Source: an archaeon
Lineage (GTDB): Archaea; Iainarchaeota; Iainarchaeia; Iainarchaeales; 1-14-0-10-31-34
Assembly: GCA_024277355.1 (NCBI GenBank)
Contig: JAJRVL010000001.1
Span: 90,001-122,000, forward strand
Length of the DNA stretch: 32,000 nucleotides
Direction: 5' to 3'
Below are positions 1-30,100 of this stretch, in pieces. How positions within the stretch are numbered: position 1 is the first letter of the stretch; each line of letters opens with the position of its first letter. A model generated the notes under the pieces. It did not search any database, was not told where the DNA came from, and was given only the letters and a program-made list of their open reading frames with translations. Made by a program: the position numbers and the translations under genes.

Positions 1-489
1 TAAATAAAGCAAAGTTTTAACAAATTCTTTTGAACAAGAAGCATATTTTTCATTCTGCATTTTTTCTTTTTCTTTTCTTATTTCTGAAAGCAAAGTAATG
101 TAAGCTAAAATTGGATCAAAAGCAATTAATTCATGAGAAATTTTAACTAATAAGTCATGCCTTAAACCAAAAAATTTTTCACAGTCGCTTCCTGTTTTGC
201 CTAAATTGTCCACTCCCCATAAATTTTCTAATTCAAATTTTGGAACCAACTCTGAAATTTCTTTTAATAATTTAGTTTGCTTTTCATTGTAAACTCTTTC
301 ATAAACTTCAGCCAACACAATCAAATCTGCTTCAACCTGAGACAAAATTGAAATTACATGATAACGGCATGCTTTATCATCAGTTAAAGAAGAAGAATAA
401 ACACAATTCCTGCAGTCAAAAATTAAATGTCTTTTTCCGCCTGATTCTTTAACTGCATAGTCGCCTACTTCAAAGTTCCCTATCTTCAT
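1..489 (-). CDS. Hypothetical protein, partial (start codon at 489-487, runs off the left window edge). Cys-containing N-terminal domain, possibly the N-domain of an archaeal-type VirB11/PilB-family secretion ATPase (unverified).
   Basis: Manual reverse-strand translation gives ATG at 489-487 followed by 163 sense codons with no stop down to position 1 (MKIGNFEVGDYAVKESGGKRHLIFDCRNCVYSSSLTDDKACRYHVISILSQVEADLIVLAEVYERVYNEKQTKLLKEISEL...). It is missing from the ORF track because it has no stop inside the window. AGGT lies 5 nt upstream, and a TTTAATATAA box (complement of 515-524) lies about 26-35 nt upstream. The functional guess rests only on my recollection of similar CxxC-containing N-domains in archaeal secretion ATPases. 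No ATPase motif is visible in the window. Confidence 0.55.
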   Translation of the reverse strand, partial: MKIGNFEVGDYAVKESGGKRHLIFDCRNCVYSSSLTDDKACRYHVISILSQVEADLIVLAEVYERVYNEKQTKLLKEISELVPKFELENLWGVDNLGKTGSDCEKFFGLRHDLLVKISHELIAFDPILAYITLLSEIRKEKEKMQNEKYASCSKEFVKTLLYL

Positions 490-549: not shown

Positions 550-650
550 ACAAAATTAATAAACAAACAAAAACATAATTAGAATGAAATGACACCAAAA
601 AGAAAAATATCTAAACCTGTAAAAATAAAAAAATTCTTGTCAGGAGGAAC
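550..650 (+). repeat. Copy 1 of a 101-bp perfect direct repeat, covering the promoter region plus the first 62 nt of the HTH-protein gene
   Basis: Manual alignment shows 550-650 identical to 2453-2553 (offset 1903): acaaaattaataaacaaacaaaaacataattagaatgaaATGacaccaaaaagaaaaatatctaaacctgtaaaaataaaaaaattcttgtcaggaggaac. The flanks mismatch (a549 vs g2452; a651 vs t2554). Confidence 0.9.
556..563 (+). promoter_or_regulatory. TATA-like box (TTAATAAA) about 26-33 nt upstream of the ATG at 589; possible promoter of a leaderless transcript
   Basis: The box sits inside the 101-bp repeat, so it is identical upstream of both HTH genes. No Shine-Dalgarno-like purine motif lies between it and the ATG. 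AT-rich DNA produces such boxes by chance, so confidence is low. Confidence 0.25.
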
Positions 651-1344
651 ACCAGCACAACAAATAGCAAAACAAACAGGATTTTCAGAAAGCAGATTAA
701 ACCAAATAAAAACAAAACTAAAAAAACAAGGAGTTCACTTGCCAAAATATTCTTCAACAAAATGGAAAAGCAACAAAGGAAAGATGTTTCAAACAGCAAA
801 AATAAGAAAAGCACTAATAACCAGTCCAACAAAAAAAACAATCAAAGAATTTTCAACACAACTAAAAACTAGCAAAACTCTAATCTCCGAAGTAATTAAA
901 CAAATTAAAAAAGAGAATGAAATGTTAATAAAAAAAAGTTTAATTCCATTTGAAATTCAAGTGAAAAAACAAAATAAATTAAAATCAAAAAAAATACAAC
1001 TAATAAAAAAATTTTTGTTAGGGGAAACTCCTGTTTCACAAATAATAAAACAAACAGGGTTATCACAAGCCAGAGTAAGTCAAATAAAAATAGAATTAAA
1101 AAAGCAGGGAATTGAAATTCCTAAATATTCTTCAACACAATGGAAGAATTCAAAAGGAGACATTTACAAAATAAATCAAGTAAGAAAAGCATTAATTACT
1201 AATCCAACAAAACAAACACAAAAACAATACTCAAAACAATTAAAAGTTACTGGCGCCACAATTATTAATGCAATTAAACAAATCAAAAAAGAAAACAGAG
1301 AATTAATAAAAAAAAGAATAAAACCTTTTGAAATTCAAATAAAA
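589..1344 (+). repeat. Intragenic tandem duplication (2 x 378 nt) of the double-HTH module
   Basis: At protein level aa 1-126 and aa 127-252 are co-linear with an offset of exactly 126 aa. The paralog at 2492-3442 has only one copy. Confidence 0.8.
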
Positions 1345-1944
1345 TCAGGACGCACAAAACCTATTCCTAAATTAACTAAAAAACAACAAGTATTACTAAA
1401 AGAAGCACAATCTTTTATTGATTACACAATAAACAAGTTTTCCTTCAAACACAAATTCAATACAGAAACAAAACAAGATTTTCAAGCAGAAGTTCAAAGA
1501 CAATTACCAAATATAATTAAAAAATTTAATTCAAAAGAATCATCATTAAAAACATGGGTAACACAAAAAATATATAGAATAAACCAAGATTTTAACATAC
1601 AAAGAGAAACACAAAAAACAGGACTATCAAGAATTGAAACAAAAATTGGAAGAAAAATAGAAGCATTTATTGCAGAGCAAACAAATCAAATACAACAACA
1701 AAAACAAAGACCAACAACATACCAAGAAACACAAAAAATACTTAAAAACGCAATCAAAGAAGTAAACAACACAAAACACTATGCAAAACAAATGCAAGCA
1801 AACCCAAAAAAATTCCCTAAAGGAAAACTCACATTAAAACAAGCAAAACAAATAATAAACGCAAGACAAACACAAAACACACAACAAAACATAGAAAATA
1901 TATACAAAAAAACAAACAAAAAAAATACAGCAAACTACAACTGA
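589..1944 (+). CDS. Lys/Gln/Thr-rich putative DNA-binding protein with a duplicated N-terminal double-HTH module and a sigma-70 region-2-like C-terminal domain
   Basis: 451-aa ATG ORF ending in TGA. Residues 1-126 and 127-252 are tandem copies; IKKFLSGG at aa 13 corresponds to IKKFLLGE at aa 139. Each copy carries an HTH-like segment (GGTPAQQIAKQTGFSESRLNQIKTKLKKQG / GETPVSQIIKQTGLSQARVSQIKIELKKQG) and a second one (TIKEFSTQLKTSKTLISEVIKQIKKEN). The C-terminal segment TETKQDFQAEVQRQLPNIIKKFNSKESSLKTWVTQKIYRINQDFNIQR fits the sigma-70 region 2 pattern (D..QE....L......F......f..WL...I.R). Paralog of 2492-3442. Confidence 0.75.
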   Translation: MTPKRKISKPVKIKKFLSGGTPAQQIAKQTGFSESRLNQIKTKLKKQGVHLPKYSSTKWKSNKGKMFQTAKIRKALITSPTKKTIKEFSTQLKTSKTLISEVIKQIKKENEMLIKKSLIPFEIQVKKQNKLKSKKIQLIKKFLLGETPVSQIIKQTGLSQARVSQIKIELKKQGIEIPKYSSTQWKNSKGDIYKINQVRKALITNPTKQTQKQYSKQLKVTGATIINAIKQIKKENRELIKKRIKPFEIQIKSGRTKPIPKLTKKQQVLLKEAQSFIDYTINKFSFKHKFNTETKQDFQAEVQRQLPNIIKKFNSKESSLKTWVTQKIYRINQDFNIQRETQKTGLSRIETKIGRKIEAFIAEQTNQIQQQKQRPTTYQETQKILKNAIKEVNNTKHYAKQMQANPKKFPKGKLTLKQAKQIINARQTQNTQQNIENIYKKTNKKNTANYN

Positions 1945-1973
1945 CAAAAATAACTCTTAAAAAATTGATTTAA

Positions 1974-2462
1974 ATGAACAAAAACGATGCAGTAAAAGGA
2001 GGAAAATTTTTACTTGAATTAGTTTTAGCTTATGTAATTATTTCCTTATTTTTTTTATTTATTCCATTAGAATTAATTGAATTAATTATAGCAAAAACTG
2101 TTATGATTTTCACAGGCGGAAAAATTGTTTTTCAGGAACCAGTTTTAATTTTATTTGAAAATTTTTCAGTTCAAATAAGTTATTTATGCACAGGCTTAAT
2201 GGAATTTATTTTATTGGCTTCAGCAATAATTGCAACAGCAGGAATCAAAAAAGAAAAAAAAGTTTTGGGAATTGTTGGAGCAGGAATTGCAACTTTTGTT
2301 TTTAATGTAATTAGAATTGTGATAACAATTTCTTTAATTGAAAACACTTCAATAGAAATAATTGAATTAACTCATGATGTTTTATTCAGAATTTCATTAT
2401 TTGTTTTAATTGCAGGATATTATTTTATCTGGTATTACTTTTCAGTGAAAAGACAAAATTAA
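1974..2462 (+). CDS. Exosortase/archaeosortase-family protein, short (162 aa) form
   Basis: Polytopic membrane protein with about 4-5 hydrophobic helices. It carries the family signature residues in the usual order: Cys in VQISYLCTGLMEFILL (C72), Arg in TFVFNVIRIVITI (R114, 42 residues after the Cys), and His/Arg in ELTHDVLFRISLFVLIAG (H134, R139). This matches the C[ST]G ... N..R[IV] ... H pattern of EpsH/exosortase/ArtA proteins as I remember it. Confidence 0.7.
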   Translation: MNKNDAVKGGKFLLELVLAYVIISLFFLFIPLELIELIIAKTVMIFTGGKIVFQEPVLILFENFSVQISYLCTGLMEFILLASAIIATAGIKKEKKVLGIVGAGIATFVFNVIRIVITISLIENTSIEIIELTHDVLFRISLFVLIAGYYFIWYYFSVKRQN

Positions 2463-2553
2463 TAAACAAACAAAAACATAATTAGAATGAAATGACACCA
2501 AAAAGAAAAATATCTAAACCTGTAAAAATAAAAAAATTCTTGTCAGGAGGAAC
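2453..2553 (+). repeat. Copy 2 of the 101-bp perfect direct repeat; it overlaps the last 10 nt of the sortase-like gene
   Basis: Identical to 550-650 by manual alignment. Confidence 0.9.
2459..2466 (+). promoter_or_regulatory. TATA-like box (TTAATAAA) about 26-33 nt upstream of the ATG at 2492
   Basis: Same sequence and spacing as 556-563, as part of the perfect repeat. Confidence 0.25.
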
Positions 2554-3442
2554 TCCTGTTCAACAAATAATAAAACAAACAGGATTATCAGAAAGCAGAA
2601 TAAGTCAAATAAAAACAAAATTACAAAAACAAGGAATTCAAATACCCAAATATTCAAAAACTAACTGGAAAGATTCAAAAGGAAACATATACAAACAAGT
2701 TCGAGCAAGAAAAGCTTTGATTACTAATCCAACAAAACAAACAATCAAAGAATACACAAAACAACTAAACTTTAACACATCAACAATTCAAAATGCAATT
2801 AAGCAAATCAAAAAAGAAAACAGAGAATTAATAAGAAAAGGAATAATGCCTTTAGAAATACAAGTAAAATCAGGATATTTAAAACCTATTCCTAAATTAA
2901 CTAAAAAACAACAAGCAGTATTACAACAAGCACAACCTTTTGTTAGACAAGCAGTTAATAGGCTTTCATTTAAACACAAATTCAATACAGAAACAAAACA
3001 AGATTTTCAGGCTGAAGTTCAAAGACAATTACCAAACATAATAAAAAAATTTAAACCAGAAAAATCACAATTAAACTCTTGGATAACCCAAAAAATATAC
3101 CGAATAAACCAAGAATTTAACATAACAAGAGAAAAACAAAAAACAGGACTATCCACAATTGAAACAAAAATCGGAAAAAAACTAGAAACATTTATACAAA
3201 AACAAACAAACATTCTAGAACAACAACAAAAAAGGAAAATAACTTACCAACAAACACAAAAAATACTACTACAAGCAATCAAAGAATTAAACAACACAAA
3301 ACACTATGCAAAAAGAATGAAAAAAAACTACAAAAAAAGATTCCCTAAAAGAAAACTTACACTAAAAGAAGCAACAGAAATACTAAACGCAAGAAACACA
3401 AGAAACACACAACAAAACACAGAAGACAGAAGGGGCTTGTGA
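2492..3442 (+). CDS. Lys/Gln/Thr-rich putative DNA-binding protein with a single double-HTH module and a sigma-70 region-2-like C-terminal domain (paralog of 589-1944)
   Basis: 316-aa ATG ORF ending in TGA. The first 20 residues are identical to ORF 589. HTH-like segment: GGTPVQQIIKQTGLSESRISQIKTKLQKQG. C-terminal segment: QPFVRQAVNRLSFKHKFNTETKQDFQAEVQRQLPNIIKKFKPEKSQLNSWITQKIYRINQEFNITREKQKTGLSTIETKIGKKLETF, which looks like sigma regions 2 to 3.0. Confidence 0.75.
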   Translation: MTPKRKISKPVKIKKFLSGGTPVQQIIKQTGLSESRISQIKTKLQKQGIQIPKYSKTNWKDSKGNIYKQVRARKALITNPTKQTIKEYTKQLNFNTSTIQNAIKQIKKENRELIRKGIMPLEIQVKSGYLKPIPKLTKKQQAVLQQAQPFVRQAVNRLSFKHKFNTETKQDFQAEVQRQLPNIIKKFKPEKSQLNSWITQKIYRINQEFNITREKQKTGLSTIETKIGKKLETFIQKQTNILEQQQKRKITYQQTQKILLQAIKELNNTKHYAKRMKKNYKKRFPKRKLTLKEATEILNARNTRNTQQNTEDRRGL

Positions 3443-12664: not shown

Positions 12665-12805
12665 GTTAATAATTCAACTTGTGGTTTAGGAAGCGAAACT
12701 TCAAATTCATGCGATATTGACGAATGGACTTGTGAAAGTTTAGGTCCTTCAGGGGGAATGCCAGGCGGGGGAGATGATTCAGCAGGAGGCTGTAAAGTTC
12801 CTTAA

Positions 12806-13118
12806 AAAAAACAGGAAAATAAAAATAAAAAAATAACAGAAAAAAATAATCAATAAAACAAAAATGAAAAAAATAACAAAAGAAAAAAAACAATGAAATA
12901 AAAAAAATTACGTAAAAAAAAGAAAAAATTCAAGAAAAAAACGCAAAAAAACAATAAAAAAAGAAAAGAAAAAAAAATTAAATTACAAAAAAAGTTTGGA
13001 AGTTAATTCATTAAAAAAACCAATAGAAAACAGCAAAAACGCAAAGATATATAAACAAATAAATACACAAAAAATATAGCTAAATAAAATTAAACATAAT
13101 TTATTAAAGAGGGCTTAA
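12806..13118 (+). promoter_or_regulatory. About 310-bp strand-asymmetric, A-rich spacer with helically phased A-tracts upstream of GP2; putative curved-DNA/promoter region
   Basis: The + strand is almost T-free between about 12806 and 13020. A-tracts of 6-9 nt start at 12914, 12923, 12935, 12945, 12956, 12969 and 12987, giving spacings of 9-13 nt for the first six. The TATA-like sequence gatatataaac lies near 13046. AAGAGGG at 13107-13113 lies 5 nt before the ATG at 13119. Confidence 0.4.
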
Positions 13119-27024: not shown

Positions 27025-27107
27025 AAACTTGTTTAATTAAACAAACAATTAAATATAAATAAAAGCATAATATTTCTAATTTAAACTAAGTTAAAGAAGG
27101 GAATTTT

Positions 27108-30100
27108 TTGGGATTAAAAGACATTTATTATTCAATAGAAGACAAATATTATTCTTTAATTGAAAAAACTCCTTTAACAAAAATAACTGATAAAATTGAT
27201 TCTATTGTTCCTTCTTTTGCAGTATTAATTGCATTAATTATTTTAATTTCAGGTTTTTTAGTTTTGCCTTTTTTTGGCGGAGAAGAATATTCTTTTACTG
27301 TAACAATCAAAGATGAACAGGGAAAAAAACTTGAAGGAATAAAAGTAAATGTTTTTATCGGAGAAGAAAAACAAGTTTTAACAACAGATTCTGAAGGAAA
27401 AATTTCATTAAAAGCAAAAAAAGATTTAAAAATAAAAATAGAAATAGACAACAAAAAATATGAATTTATAGAAAAACAATTTAATTTAACTGAAAATGAA
27501 TTAAGTTTTGAAGTTGAATTAAAGAAAATTGAGGCAGAACCCGCAGAAGCTAATTTGAAGTTTACAGACAAAAGCGGAAAATATATTACAGGAAAAGAAA
27601 TAACAGTAAACTTAAGCTGCAGTAATTCTTCTATTAAACCTTCTCCTTCAACAGTAAAAGATTCAGATAAAGACGGGGAAATAAAAATTAATATTCCTAA
27701 AGGATGCGGAAAATTAGTTATTAATTCAGTTGAAGTTGAAGGATATGAAAACTGGTTTGGAACAATTAATTCAGCAGTAGAAACAATAAAATTAAATGCA
27801 ATATTTTTAGGACAGGCATTAGGAGATTTAAAAGTAATCGTGGAAAATTCAAACGGAGAATTATTAGATGACATTAAAGTAAGTTTAATGAAAGGGAACT
27901 CAAAAATAGATCAAAAGTATACAGTTGACGGAACCGCAGAATTTACCGGAATTGAAATTGGATTTTATGACTTAAAATTAGAAGACGAAAAAAATGGGTT
28001 TGAACCAAAAAGAGTTTATTCAGTTGAAATAGAAAACGAAAAAATAAATGAAAGAACAGTTGAAATGCAGCCAACAAAAAAAGGCACACTAAAAATAAAT
28101 ATATTAGATAAAGAAACTAATTCAAAAATAAAAAATTCTGAAGTAATAATAGAAAATGAATTAGGAGAAATAATAGGGGAAAGAAACACAGGAGAAACAG
28201 GAAATACAATTGAATTTGGATTATATTCCACTGAAAAACTAATTATTAAAGCAAGAGCAGAAAAATATTTGCCTGAAAAAACTGAAATTAACCCTGAAAC
28301 CCAAAAAGAAGTTGAAATTAAATTAGAAAAAATTACTGCAGAAAACAGCGGTAAATTAAAAATAATTTTAGTTGATGAAGACAAAAAAAACATTGCTAAT
28401 GCAAGAGTAATGCTAAAAGATGAAGACGGCAGTCTGCTTACTGAGTATCCTGAAAAGTTTTCTGATGCAGAAGGAATAGTTGAATACACAGGAATAAAAA
28501 AAGGAATTTATTTTGCTTATGCAGAAAAATATCCTGCTTCTGGACTTTCAGACTCATTTGAAATAAAATTAACAGAAAAAACTGAAATTGAATTAAAATT
28601 AATCATAGGAACAGCAAAAATTGAACTGCAAACAATAACAAAAGACGGAGAATTCATTCCAAATACAAGAGTTAAAGTAAAAAGCATTGATGAAGAAAAA
28701 ACTTATACTTTAAATTCAGAAGGAAAAACTACTTTAGAAATAAAAGCAGATAAAAGAGTTTTTTTTGAATTCTTTGATTCAAAAAATGTTTATTCAAAAT
28801 ACACTACAAAAGAATATCAGTTACTTCCAAAGAATTATTTTATTACTGCAACAATGCCTGAACAAAATTTAGGAGAAAATTTATGGATTGAATTAAAAGG
28901 CGTTTATTTAAATGACACAAAACAAACTATTCTGGCAGGAGGAAAAAAATACAAAGCAGTATTAGAATTATTTGTTCCAGAAAACGAATCATATGAAGAA
29001 GCAGGAATTCATTTCAGGACAGGAGAAGATGAAAACCCATTTATAGAAAATGATTTAGTTTGGATAGAAAAAATTAATGTTTCAAACGCTTCAAAAATAA
29101 AAGGAACAACATGGAACCCGAAAAAAGGGCAGCAAACTGATTTTGATTCAGATAATTCAGCTTCAAGCAATGCAAAAGCAAAATGGACAAATATTTTATG
29201 GAACAATGTTGAACCAGGAGTATATGAAGCAGAAATAGAACTAAGAATACGAGAAGGAACAGGAGATAAAGAAAAAGTAAGTTTAAGTTTTAGGGCATGG
29301 GGAAAAGGAAGAAACTATTATTACTTTCCGGCAGACAATGAATTAGGTTCAAGTTCTTCCACTACAACAAAACAAGGATTATATGCTGAAACATTCCAGA
29401 AAGAATTTAACACAGAAGAAGAAGTTCCTGTTTGCATGGAAAACAATTTATGTTTGTCAAAACAAAGATTAGAAGATAAAACAAAAGAACCATTTATCAT
29501 ACAAAAAAAACTTCCGTTTGAAGCAGGAGCAAACGGAAACTATGAATATAGTTTTAAAATAGTGAATAATTCTCAGTCAATTTATGATGAACCTGAATTA
29601 TGGATTGAATTAATTGATGCAACAGGAAATTTAACTGAAGAAGCAGAAATAAGTTATTATGAAATTAAAACTTCAGAAGGAAATTCAAAAACAAAAGAAG
29701 TTAATTCAAATGAAACACAAGGAATTTCTTTAGGTTTATATGGAAGGCAGTCAGTAATTGAAGGAATTATTGGAATAAAAACAAAAAATACAGGAAATAC
29801 TTTTGTTAACTTAAAAATATTTGAAAAAGTAAACAATGGGTCAAATAAAATTTTTGACAATGAAAAGAAAACAGAAATAAAAATTAAATCAGGAAAAGCA
29901 TTAGAAATAGAATTAATGCCTGAATTAATTCCTGCTTTTGCTGAAACTCCTGCAACAATAATAATAAAAGATTTAGATGGAATTGAAGTAGAACAAGCAA
30001 GAGTAAAATTAAATGTAATAGAAGAAGGAAACAGAAAAATAACTATTGAAGAAAAACAAACAAACAGGTTTGGTGAAACAGAATTTTTAATCCCAGTATT

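What the first reader, a model, noticed from the sequence alone, without database searches (positions are those of the whole stretch)
589..3442. Lys/Gln-rich paralog pair that looks like a circularly permuted sigma-70: region-4-like HTH at the N-terminus, region-2/3-like at the C-terminus
Both proteins flanking the sortase-like gene begin with HTH segments whose recognition helix reads S[EQ][SA]R[LIV][NS]QIK.[KE]L[KQ]KQG. This resembles sigma region 4.2 (T.ERIRQIE.KAL.KL).

Their C-terminal halves read [QS][PS]F[VI]... KF NTETKQDFQAEVQRQLPNIIKKF.(5-6)L[NK][ST]W[IV]TQKIYRINQ[ED]FNI.RE. I can align this without gaps to the sigma-70 region 2 consensus as I remember it (AeDlvQevflkl...f.......f.aWL..Ia.N...d..R).

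This is followed by TGLS.IETKIG.K[LI]E.F, compare region 3.0 (IRIP.HM.ETINKL). The order is therefore r4-like then r2-like, the reverse of canonical sigma factors, and ORF 589 has the N-terminal module twice.

If the host is an archaeon, as other signals suggest, any sigma region 2 homologue would be unexpected. If it is a bacterium, the permutation and the extreme K/Q/T composition are still unusual.
Basis: partly seen in the sequence, partly recalled or inferred. Interest (0 to 1): 0.65.

Follow-up and report, generated by a model that had tools for sequence, protein, structure and literature searches.

The report
Sigma-like DNA-binding proteins in an archaeon
Two neighbouring genes of a tiny DPANN archaeon encode DNA-binding proteins whose C-terminal half is a highly diverged copy of the core domain (region 2) of bacterial sigma factors. 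This is a rare new architecture within the already reported "sigma genes in DPANN archaea", not a circularly permuted sigma factor.

Summary
ORF 589-1944 (451 aa) and ORF 2492-3442 (316 aa) are 71% identical paralogs flanking an exosortase-like gene, and ORF 589 carries the N-terminal unit twice.

The host is an archaeon. TBP lies on the same contig, TFB is in the genome, and relatives are labelled Iainarchaeum (DPANN).

- **C-terminal domain.** It is a real but very diverged sigma-70 region-2 homolog.
  - Pfam sees nothing in the window proteins themselves.
  - The roughly 50-member family links them to sigma factors. One member passes Pfam Sigma70_r2 at 31 bits.
  - A 4-sequence family profile finds a canonical ECF sigma at E 1.8e-6 among 1.84 billion proteins.
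  - hhalign against canonical sigmas gives 95% probability (P 8e-9); shuffled controls score far lower.
  - In the AlphaFold models this segment scores pLDDT mostly 72-94 and matches the SigE sigma-2 domain (rmsd 2.1 Å).
- **N-terminal modules.** They are generic helix-turn-helix units, present in 1-3 detected copies per protein and not specifically sigma region 4.
- **Unit after region 2.** It cannot be assigned to region 3 or to region 4.
- **Circular permutation.** It is not supported.

Sigma genes in DPANN archaea are already in print (Castelle 2021), and this scan has reported them before on other DNA. In this order 44 of 196 genomes carry Pfam-passing Sigma70_r2. I class this as a new variant of a known kind. 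What it does is unknown; I take it to be a transcription regulator.

The parts
550..650 (+). Copy 1 of a 101-nt perfect direct repeat: an AT-rich promoter region plus the first 62 nt of ORF 589
   Evidence: Base-by-base comparison with 2453-2553 gives 101/101 identical, and identity drops abruptly on both sides. The repeat was seeded as D4.
589..1944 (+). ORF 589, 451 aa (P0002): four HTH modules (a duplicated two-module unit), then a sigma-2-like domain, then a C-terminal HTH-like unit with a K/Q-rich insert
   Evidence: ORF list. BLASTP against ORF 2492. Family CTD profile matches residues 260-441 at E 5e-42 (the profile was built from an alignment that includes this protein).
610..1311 (+). 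Four N-terminal ~47-aa tri-helical HTH modules of ORF 589 (residues 8-53, 68-115, 133-179 and about 194-241)
   Evidence: The module HMM finds three of the four. The fourth is inferred from the internal duplication. Pfam gives only sub-threshold generic HTH hits.
1366..1620 (+). Sigma-70 region-2-like domain of ORF 589 (residues 260-344)
   Evidence: Family alignment and hhalign against canonical sigmas. A local ECF-sigma HMM scores 16.5 bits.
1621..1941 (+). C-terminal HTH-like unit of ORF 589 with a ~45-aa K/Q-rich insert (residues 345-451). It sits where region 3 would be; its ancestry (sigma-3 or sigma-4) is unresolved.
   Evidence: Alignments. Sub-alignment hhalign.
1974..2462 (+). 162-aa membrane protein, exosortase/archaeosortase-like. 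This is context; it is not linked to the family in other genomes.
   Evidence: Pfam PF09721 at 27.8 bits against a cut-off of 25.7. Homologs of the sigma-like genes elsewhere lie in unrelated housekeeping contexts.
2453..2553 (+). Copy 2 of the 101-nt perfect repeat. It starts inside the last codons of the exosortase-like gene.
2492..3442 (+). ORF 2492, 316 aa (P0001): two HTH modules, then a sigma-2-like domain, then a C-terminal HTH-like unit
   Evidence: AlphaFold model me8da8713ee89.
2513..2836 (+). Two N-terminal HTH modules of ORF 2492 (residues 8-53 and 68-115)
   Evidence: Module HMM. Model helices H22-30/H34-46 and H65-78/H82-92/H96-115. Pfam Sigma70_r4 reaches only 15 bits against a cut-off of 24.1.
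2891..3145 (+). Sigma-70 region-2-like domain of ORF 2492 (residues 134-218)
   Evidence: Ten-residue pLDDT block means of 78-91 for residues 131-210, with three long helices H138-161, H166-185 and H194-218. Foldseek match to 8b3z_D, the SigE N-terminal domain: TM 0.70, rmsd 2.1 Å over 72 columns. Family hhalign.
3146..3439 (+). C-terminal HTH-like unit of ORF 2492 with a K/Q-rich insert (residues 219-316)
   Evidence: Low pLDDT. Aligns to the compact 'GKTLEETAKERKIPLKEAQALWxAY' unit of other members.

Best explanation
The two genes encode members of a rare protein family that, within the one phylum searched, turned up only in this order of DPANN archaea (Iainarchaeota-type).

**Architecture of the family**
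- An N-terminal array of 1-3 detected generic tri-helical HTH modules (four in ORF 589, counting one inferred from its internal duplication), each about 50 aa. The consensus is ..AIRKAIL.NP.LS..EI...L.KKGI.VS...I..VR..MRKEGI.LP.
- A short basic linker with a conserved P-x-L-[TS]-x-x-Q motif.
- A diverged sigma-70 region-2 domain (...D[FL]..xV...LP.WI.K[FY]DP.K..L.[TS][WY][IV]..K[IV].....DF.R...).
- One more three-helix HTH unit directly behind it.

**Origin and function**
- *Shown:* the core domain descends from the bacterial-type sigma factors that are common in this archaeal order.
- *Inferred:* the protein most likely works as a sequence-specific transcription regulator.
  - The tandem HTH modules, and probably the C-terminal HTH, read duplex DNA.
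  - The sigma-2-like domain serves as the effector or contact surface, binding either a protein partner or DNA.
- *Inferred from the known geometry of the bacterial holoenzyme:* there is no long 3.2-type linker between the sigma-2-like domain and the next HTH. The protein therefore cannot span a polymerase the way a bacterial sigma does, with sigma-2 on the clamp helices and sigma-4 on the flap.
- *Inferred:* in this genome the two copies share an identical promoter and 5' end and sit at the head of a cluster of giant surface-protein genes. They may regulate that cluster or themselves.
For: **Host is an archaeon.** TBP lies on the same contig and TFB is in the genome. A relative's record is titled Candidatus Iainarchaeum archaeon.

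**The family is real and native.**
- A single-sequence search finds homologs in related genomes.
- The profile finds the family in 20 of 196 genomes of the order and in 0 of 19 other genomes of the phylum.
- Only 50 representatives reach E<=1e-3 among 1.84 billion proteins.

**Homology to sigma region 2.**
- Sigma70_r2 is the Pfam family matched by the most C-terminal domains: 4 of 18, best E 0.004.
- Family member P0048 has two N-terminal modules and the family C-terminal domain. It passes the Sigma70_r2 gathering score, 31.3 against 24 bits.
- The genome-wide PF04542 scan hits the family genes of G100 (E 0.0015) and G140 (E 0.007).
- A 4-sequence family profile hits P0046 at E 1.8e-6 across the whole library. 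P0046 is a canonical ECF sigma: Sigma70_r2 43 bits, Sigma70_r4_2 34 bits.
- hhalign of the 52-sequence family C-terminal domain:

| Target alignment | Probability | P | Aligned columns |
|---|---|---|---|
| ECF-type sigmas | 94.8% | 5e-8 | 71 |
| Group-3-type sigmas | 85.8% | 5e-6 | 105 |
| E. coli FliA/RpoS/RpoH/RpoD only | 83.8% | 8e-6 | 114 |

- Controls: real scores are 41-52. Reversed targets score about 12 and column-shuffled targets at most 13-20.
- The result is unchanged when the K/Q-rich proteins of the window's genus are left out.

**Structure.**
- In both AlphaFold models the sigma-2-like segment scores pLDDT mostly 72-94; in the window protein's model it is the only well-predicted part.
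- The Foldseek lists are rich in sigma factors: sigma-2 of Taq sigA, SigE N-terminal domain (TM 0.70, rmsd 2.1 Å), SigB (probability 0.99), SigK, SigH, BldN and WhiG.

**N-terminal modules are DNA-binding HTH units.** See the Pfam tallies and the Foldseek hits to Mos1, Pax6 and SETMAR paired-type HTH domains.
Against: - No Foldseek match reaches E<=1e-3. The models are multi-domain and only partly confident.
- A PDB sequence-profile search found no sigma factor.
- The window proteins on their own give only weak signals, so their assignment rests on family membership.
- The canonical sigma alignments used for hhalign are small (4-10 sequences), and most of the ECF-type set (8 of its 10 rows) comes from the same archaeal order.
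- Function is not shown.
- The archaeal RNA polymerase has no known sigma-binding role.
Confidence: 0.72

Rival explanations
1. True circular permutation of a sigma factor. On this view the N-terminal HTH modules are the relocated region 4, so the protein keeps both promoter-reading heads in reversed order.
For: - The best local hhalign match of the module profile on canonical sigma alignments falls on the region 4.2 HTH, at P about 0.01. Shuffled targets score lower.
- Three of 47 members have N-terminal Pfam Sigma70_r4 hits.
- P0033 passes Sigma70_r4_2 at 32.7 bits.
Against: - hhalign probability is only 2-5%.
- More members hit HTH_24, HTH_11, HTH_28 and HTH_23 than hit Sigma70_r4.
- The Sigma70_r4 model also hits all four archaeal control genomes and this genome's TFB, so weak hits to it are not specific.
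- Detected module number varies from 1 to 3 per protein.
- A further HTH unit still follows region 2 at the C-terminus, and it matches region 4.2 about as well as the N-terminal modules do.
Confidence: 0.1
2. A functional archaeal 'sigma'. The sigma-2-like domain docks on the clamp coiled-coil of the archaeal RNA polymerase, the site used by TFE and Spt5. The HTH array then directs the enzyme to particular promoters, for example those of the adjacent giant surface-protein genes.
For: - Within the sigma-2-like part, the columns shared between the family and canonical sigmas include D[FL].Q, KFDP.K and L.TW. My recollection is that these fall in regions 2.1-2.3, which in bacterial sigmas include the clamp-helix contact; this mapping was not tested here.
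- The family is kept under purifying selection, with three paralogs in a 1.1-Mb genome.
- The two copies sit at the head of the giant-gene cluster.
Against: - No evidence of any contact with RNA polymerase.
- TBP and TFB are present, so the standard initiation system is intact.
- No conserved genomic link to the giant genes in other genomes.
- No enriched motif upstream of the giant genes.
- An earlier check in this scan priced the same idea for canonical DPANN sigmas at 8 in 100.
Confidence: 0.1
3. No relation to sigma factors. On this view the resemblance is a by-eye artefact of a K/Q-rich helical sequence, and the domain is an unrelated helical bundle.
For: - Pfam finds no Sigma70_r2 or r3 in the window proteins.
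- The PDB profile search finds no sigma.
- Foldseek E-values are all above 0.1.
Against: - Family members with ordinary composition give the same or stronger signal.
- One member passes Pfam's curated threshold.
- There is a library-wide significant hit to a canonical ECF sigma.
- Reversed and shuffled controls score far lower.
Confidence: 0.06
4. A regulator carried by a virus, plasmid or other mobile element that has integrated next to the surface-protein cluster.
For: - Patchy distribution: 20 of 215 genomes.
- Tandem duplication with a perfectly repeated 5' region.
- Two homologs are interrupted by stop codons.
Against: - Homologs lie among housekeeping genes: GatD/GatE, PGI, RpiA, malic enzyme, fumarase, PolB.
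- Base composition matches the rest of the window.
- No integrase or other mobile-element gene was noticed in the parts of the window that were examined.
Confidence: 0.04

Closest known systems
Bacterial ECF (group 4) sigma factors, e.g. E. coli RpoE, M. tuberculosis SigE/SigH/SigK
   Same: - The sigma-2 domain matches best by hhalign: 95% probability, P 8e-9.
- It has the same three-helix layout and the KFDP..(G)..L.TW...DF.R signature.
- There are structural matches to the SigE N-terminal domain, SigH and SigK.
- It is followed by one HTH unit.
   Different: - There is no flexible sigma-2/sigma-4 linker.
- The unit after region 2 is not recognisable as Sigma70_r4_2.
- The N-terminal array of 1-3 detected extra HTH modules is not part of the standard sigma-2/sigma-4 ECF architecture.
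- The host has an archaeal RNA polymerase with TBP and TFB.
- The window proteins do not reach Pfam thresholds.
Sigma-70 homologs of DPANN archaea (fam00359 of Castelle et al. 2021, PMC8204110; to my recollection also noted by Rinke et al. 2013, which I could not read here)
   Same: - These are archaeal hosts of the DPANN group carrying sigma-70-derived genes of unknown role.
- In this very order, 44 of 196 genomes carry Pfam-passing Sigma70_r2 ORFs.
   Different: - The reported genes are recognisable as sigma-70 by standard models and keep region 4.
- This family is invisible to Pfam in most members and has no recognisable region 4.
- It is headed by an array of HTH modules.
- G000 itself has no Pfam-detectable Sigma70_r2.
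Group 3 sigma factors (FliA, SigB, WhiG: sigma-2, sigma-3, sigma-4)
   Same: - hhalign against group-3-type and E. coli alignments extends from region 2 through the region 3.0/3.1 position, over 105-114 columns.
- A three-helix unit follows region 2.4 directly, as sigma-3 does.
- The P-x-L-T-x-x-Q/E motif aligns with the region 1.2 'PLLTAEEE' of RpoS in a MAFFT alignment.
   Different: - Taken alone, the sigma-3-position unit is not significantly sigma-3-like (P 0.003, probability 11%).
- There is no region 3.2 and no sigma-4.
Sigma-like domains reused outside transcription initiation, e.g. PhyR
   Same: A sigma-derived fold in a protein that need not bind RNA polymerase. PhyR appears among the Foldseek hits (3t0y_C).
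   Different: PhyR keeps sigma-2 and sigma-4 and carries a receiver domain. No such signalling domain is present here.

Membership tests
Sigma-70 family (Pfam Sigma70_r2 PF04542 as the defining core) | Region 2 domain detectable by the curated model above its gathering score | tested here: not met
   - Window proteins: no hit at E<=10.
- Whole genome: no hit at E<=1.
- Family member P0048 does pass, at 31.3 against 24 bits. Four of 18 C-terminal domains give sub-threshold hits.
Sigma-70 family | Homology of the core domain to region 2 by profile-profile comparison and by fold | tested here: met
   - hhalign gives 84-96% probability and P 8e-9 to 8e-6, with reversed and shuffled controls scoring far lower.
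- The family profile hits the canonical ECF sigma P0046 at E 1.8e-6.
- Foldseek matches the SigE N-terminal domain at TM 0.70, rmsd 2.1 Å.
Sigma-70 family | C-terminal region 4 (PF04545/PF08281) that reads the -35 element and binds the beta flap | tested here: inconclusive
   - The C-terminal HTH unit matches sigma-4.2 only at P 0.01-0.02 and sigma-3.1 at P 0.003.
- Pfam Sigma70_r4 hits 1 of 18 C-terminal domains, at E 0.023.
- There is no linker long enough to reach a flap-like site (inference).
Sigma-70 family | Binding to the RNA polymerase core and promoter-specific initiation | not testable with these tools
   The host has an archaeal RNA polymerase with TBP and TFB. No interaction data exist.
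   - hhalign probability is 2-5%.
- Generic HTH families outnumber Sigma70_r4.
- The r4 model is non-specific in archaea.
- Detected copy number varies from 1 to 3 per protein.
Group 3 sigma (sigma-2, sigma-3, sigma-4) | Region 3 (PF04539) after region 2 | tested here: inconclusive
   - The position and the three-helix topology fit.
- Pfam Sigma70_r3 hits 1 of 18, at E 0.0075.
- The sub-alignment alone gives P 0.003.

The most novel reading that the evidence does not exclude
The sigma-2-like domain still docks on an RNA polymerase clamp, here the archaeal Rpo1N coiled-coil. The family would then be a working, promoter-selective 'archaeal sigma' in which an N-terminal HTH array replaces region 4. 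That would be a hybrid of bacterial and archaeal initiation logic, possibly controlling the giant surface-protein cluster.
Probability: 0.1. Interest if true: 0.9.

Novelty: new variant of a known kind. Interest (0 to 1): 0.45.

Why it matters
- **Diversification beyond what standard models detect.** Bacterial-type sigma genes in DPANN archaea are a known puzzle, because these cells have an archaeal polymerase with TBP and TFB. This family shows that the sigma-2 fold has diversified in one archaeal order well beyond what standard models detect. Among the examined Pfam-positive ORFs of the order, the forms seen were:
  - ECF-like proteins;
  - longer forms;
  - proteins with two sigma-2-like segments;
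  - the HTH-array forms described here, which keep region 2 but have no recognisable region 4.
- **A hint about function.** That pattern suggests region 2, rather than the whole sigma, is the part retained across these forms. This gives a concrete handle on what sigma domains do in archaea: test what the domain binds.
- **Annotation.** About 50 protein clusters that carry no informative functional annotation (where source names were looked up, one 'YlxM'-type label, the rest none) can be labelled as sigma-2-domain HTH regulators.

Tried and rejected
- **Word-index homolog searches** found almost nothing. The window's lineage is poorly represented and K-rich words swamp the candidate list.
- **The search for related loci.**
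  - With the full alignment it failed for lack of a conserved stretch.
  - On metagenome contigs it gave only a false positive, L040, a bacterial KAS-III-like gene.
  - On genome contigs it gave two true loci.
- **PDB sequence-profile search** gave no sigma.
- **Foldseek on whole multi-domain models** gave no E<=1e-3.
- **Shared operator motif** upstream of the genes in the window: only an 11-mer of doubtful significance.
- **Conserved gene neighbourhood:** none found.
- **Rinke et al. 2013** could not be read, so it is cited from memory only.
- **Mobile-element origin** was considered and rejected as unlikely, because homologs lie in housekeeping contexts.
- **Genome-wide TGA recoding in G006** was considered and rejected as unlikely. 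The genome is 99% complete by marker genes, which I take to argue against widespread in-frame stops.

Full report
**1. What is there**

The window has about 27% GC. It is G000:C10:90001-122000 of a 1.13-Mb genome that is 96% complete.

On the + strand lie, in order:
- ORF 589-1944 (451 aa);
- a 162-aa membrane protein at 1974-2462;
- ORF 2492-3442 (316 aa);
- a run of giant ORFs of 2404, 567, 2443, 692, 1481 and more than 1631 aa.

The membrane protein matches Pfam Exosortase_EpsH just above its cut-off.

The two flanking proteins are 71% identical over 300 residues. Residues 1-126 of ORF 589 are an extra copy of the N-terminal unit.

A 101-nt stretch, 550-650 = 2453-2553, is perfectly identical. 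It covers the promoter and the first 62 nt of both genes. The remainder of the genes is only about 80% identical. dN/dS between the copies is 0.4-0.55.

**2. Host**

- TBP lies on the same contig.
- TFB is in the genome.
- No Sigma70_r2 is detectable anywhere in the genome.
- A homolog-bearing genome of the same order is deposited as 'Candidatus Iainarchaeum archaeon'.

The host is a DPANN archaeon of the Iainarchaeota (Diapherotrites) type. The extreme K/Q/T/N composition is what a 26-27% GC genome gives.

**3. The family**

The window protein alone finds homologs in related genomes: G003 at 2e-19, G008 at 3e-15, G006 at 4e-12 and G048 at 2e-5. These have ordinary composition.

Distribution:
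- A profile finds the family in 20 of 196 genomes of the order, plus a third, distant paralog in G000 itself (C2:55650-56477).
- With the C-terminal domain alone, 20 of 215 genomes of the phylum match. All are in this order, and 0 of the 19 other genomes match.
- An exhaustive HMMER scan of 1.84 billion representative proteins with a 4-sequence C-terminal-domain profile gives only 50 proteins at E<=1e-3. Where source names were looked up, one 'YlxM' label appeared and the rest carried none.

Architecture:
- 1-3 detected N-terminal ~50-aa HTH modules per protein (four in ORF 589, counting one inferred from the duplication), with consensus GSKRAAIRKAILENPRLSNKEIAKLLAKKGIKVSLSSISQVRSRMRKEGIELPK;
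- a basic linker ending in P-x-L-[TS]-x-x-Q/E;
- a ~85-aa three-helix domain;
- a three-helix HTH unit (GKTLEETAKERKIPLKEAQELWxAY).

In the window's subgroup the last unit carries a ~45-aa K/Q-rich insert.

The gene neighbourhood is not conserved. Neighbours include malic enzyme and fumarase in G003, GatD/GatE, PGI and RpiA in G008, and PolB in G048. The link to the exosortase-like gene and the giant genes is therefore specific to this genome.

**4. Is the C-terminal domain sigma region 2?**

Pfam on the window proteins says nothing. There is no r2 or r3 hit at E<=10, only sub-threshold generic HTH hits at the N-terminus. At the family level the answer is yes, on six lines of evidence.

(a) Among 24,736 Pfam models, Sigma70_r2 is the one matched by the most C-terminal domains: 4 of 18, best E 0.004.

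(b) Family member P0048 has two N-terminal modules and the family C-terminal domain. It passes the Sigma70_r2 gathering score, 31.3 against 24 bits.

(c) A genome-wide PF04542 scan of the order hits the family genes of G100 (E 0.0015) and G140 (E 0.007).

(d) The 4-sequence family profile hits P0046 at a library-wide E of 1.8e-6. P0046 is a canonical ECF sigma: Sigma70_r2 43 bits, Sigma70_r4_2 34 bits.

(e) hhalign of the 52-sequence C-terminal-domain alignment gives the results below.

| Target alignment | Composition | Probability | P | Columns |
|---|---|---|---|---|
| ECF-type | 8 archaeal Pfam-passing sigmas, P0046, E. coli RpoE | 94.8% | 5e-8 | 71 |
| Group-3-type | 4 archaeal sigmas, E. 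coli FliA/RpoS/RpoH/RpoD core | 85.8% | 5e-6 | 105 |
| E. coli only | FliA, RpoS, RpoH, RpoD core | 83.8% | 8e-6 | 114 |

Reversed targets score about 12 and column-shuffled targets at most 13-20, against 41-52 for the real ones. Leaving out the window genus changes nothing. The region-2 part alone gives 95.8% probability and P 8e-9.

(f) AlphaFold models:
- For the window protein the mean pLDDT is 58, but ten-residue block means are 78-91 across residues 131-210.
- For P0003 the mean pLDDT is 72, and the C-terminal domain mostly scores 72-94.
- The domain has three long helices, as sigma-2 does.
- No Foldseek hit against PDB reaches E<=1e-3. The top lists are nevertheless dominated by sigma factors:
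  - Taq sigma-2 (3ugo);
  - the SigE N-terminal domain 8b3z_D (TM 0.70, rmsd 2.1 Å, 72 columns);
  - RpoS regions 1.2-2;
  - SigH, SigK, BldN and WhiG;
  - SigB (probability 0.99).

A MAFFT alignment of canonical and family sequences lines up D[LF].Q, K[FY]DP..(G), [FL].T[WY] and D[FY].R without difficulty.

The caveat is that the window proteins are at the diverged edge of the family. With only the two paralogs, hhalign gives 34% probability and P 4e-4 against ECF sigmas, and nothing against E. coli sigmas.

**5. Is it a circular permutation?**

It is not, on the evidence below.
- The N-terminal modules are generic HTH units. Among 47 members, HTH_24 (7), HTH_11 (6), HTH_28 (5) and HTH_23 (4) each match more members than Sigma70_r4 (3).
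- hhalign of the 91-module alignment against the sigma alignments does land on region 4.2, but at 2-5% probability and P about 0.01.
- The Sigma70_r4 model rings in all four archaeal control genomes. In G000 its best hit is TFB, not these genes.
- Structurally the module pair resembles paired-type or Mos1-type tandem HTH domains.
- Detected copy number varies from 1 to 3 per protein.
- A further HTH unit still sits behind region 2. By position and topology it is sigma-3-like, and the full-length hhalign alignments run through regions 3.0/3.1. Taken alone, it matches sigma-3.1 (P 0.003) and sigma-4.2 (P 0.012-0.018) about equally.

The best description is a sigma-2 core with one adjacent HTH of unresolved ancestry and an accreted N-terminal HTH array.

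**6. Context in the literature and in this scan**

- Castelle et al. 2021 (PMC8204110) reported sigma-70 genes in DPANN archaea, mainly Woesearchaeota. They found no anti-sigma factors and left the mechanism open.
- To my recollection Rinke et al. 2013 noted archaeal sigma homologs as well. That paper could not be read here.
- This scan has reported canonical sigma genes in Woesearchaeota, Micrarchaeota and Pacearchaeota several times, on other DNA.
- In this order, 44 of 196 genomes have ORFs that pass Sigma70_r2. Among them:
  - ECF-like proteins of about 200 aa;
  - longer forms;
  - proteins with N-terminal extensions before the sigma domain;
  - ORFs with two sigma-2-like segments in tandem (L064, L065, L075).

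The present family is one branch of that radiation that Pfam largely fails to detect.

**7. How it probably works**

*Shown:* HTH modules and a sigma-2-derived domain in one polypeptide; purifying selection; a native archaeal context.

*Inferred:*
- The protein is a sequence-specific DNA-binding regulator that uses the HTH array, and probably the C-terminal HTH, on duplex DNA.
- The sigma-2-like domain acts as a contact or effector surface.
- Region 2.4 runs almost directly into the next helix, 3 residues apart in the model. The protein therefore lacks the 3.2-type linker that lets bacterial sigmas bridge the clamp helices and the flap, and a bacterial-style holoenzyme geometry is excluded.
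- Whether the domain contacts the archaeal clamp coiled-coil is open. I put that at about 10%.
- The identical promoter and 5' end of the two copies suggests co-regulation or gene conversion. No convincing operator shared with the giant genes was found.

**8. Verdict**

I class this as a new variant of a known kind and score interest as moderate, at 0.45.

Noticed in passing
L006 / L020 (G006:C3:23409-24236, minus strand): The G006 homolog has an in-frame TGA exactly at the family's conserved Trp: 'LPxWIxKF' reads 'LPY*IKKF'. The G114 member also shows one TGA. This could be a point mutation, a sequencing error or local recoding. The genome is 99% complete by marker genes, which I take to argue against genome-wide recoding.
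   Followed up: no
L042:2852-3748: The G100 (Candidatus Iainarchaeum) homolog is split by a TAG between the HTH modules (142 aa) and the sigma-2-like domain. The latter was called as a separate 132-aa protein (P0004). This may be a natural split or a pseudogene.
   Followed up: no
L064, L065 (G135) and L075 (G132): ORFs of 303-384 aa in the same order carry an N-terminal HTH, a first sigma-2-like segment resembling this family, and a second segment matched by the local ECF-sigma HMM, in tandem. The PF04542 scan scored hits above the cut-off in these ORFs.
   Followed up: partly
window 550-650 and 2453-2553: A 101-nt perfect direct repeat covers the promoter and the first 62 nt of both sigma-like genes. 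The rest of the genes is about 80% identical. This points to gene conversion or strong constraint on a shared regulatory region.
   Followed up: yes
window 556-575, 2459-2478 and about 27037-27052: The 11-mer TAAACAAACAA, within TTAAT(A/T)AAACAAACAA, is shared by the upstream regions of ORF 589, ORF 2492 and the giant gene at 27108. It may be a chance match in 26% GC DNA, or part of a TATA/BRE-like element.
   Followed up: partly
window 12665-13118: A 454-nt gap with no listed ORF of 90 aa or more lies between the 567-aa gene and the 2443-aa giant gene. Its 3' two-thirds is extremely A-rich.
   Followed up: no
G000:C2:55650-56561 (L038, P0032): A third, distant paralog of the family (399 aa) lies elsewhere in the same genome. 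It has a large insertion inside the sigma-2-like domain, between the 'WI' and 'L..HIY' segments.
   Followed up: partly
L044 (G067:C74, a 2.8-kb contig): A complete group-1-like sigma (287 aa, regions 1.2-4) sits on a very short contig of a genome with 5% contamination. Bacterial contamination is not excluded for this one.
   Followed up: no
window 1-489 (minus strand): An edge-truncated divergent gene with a Cys-containing N-terminal domain. It has no Pfam hit above noise.
   Followed up: no
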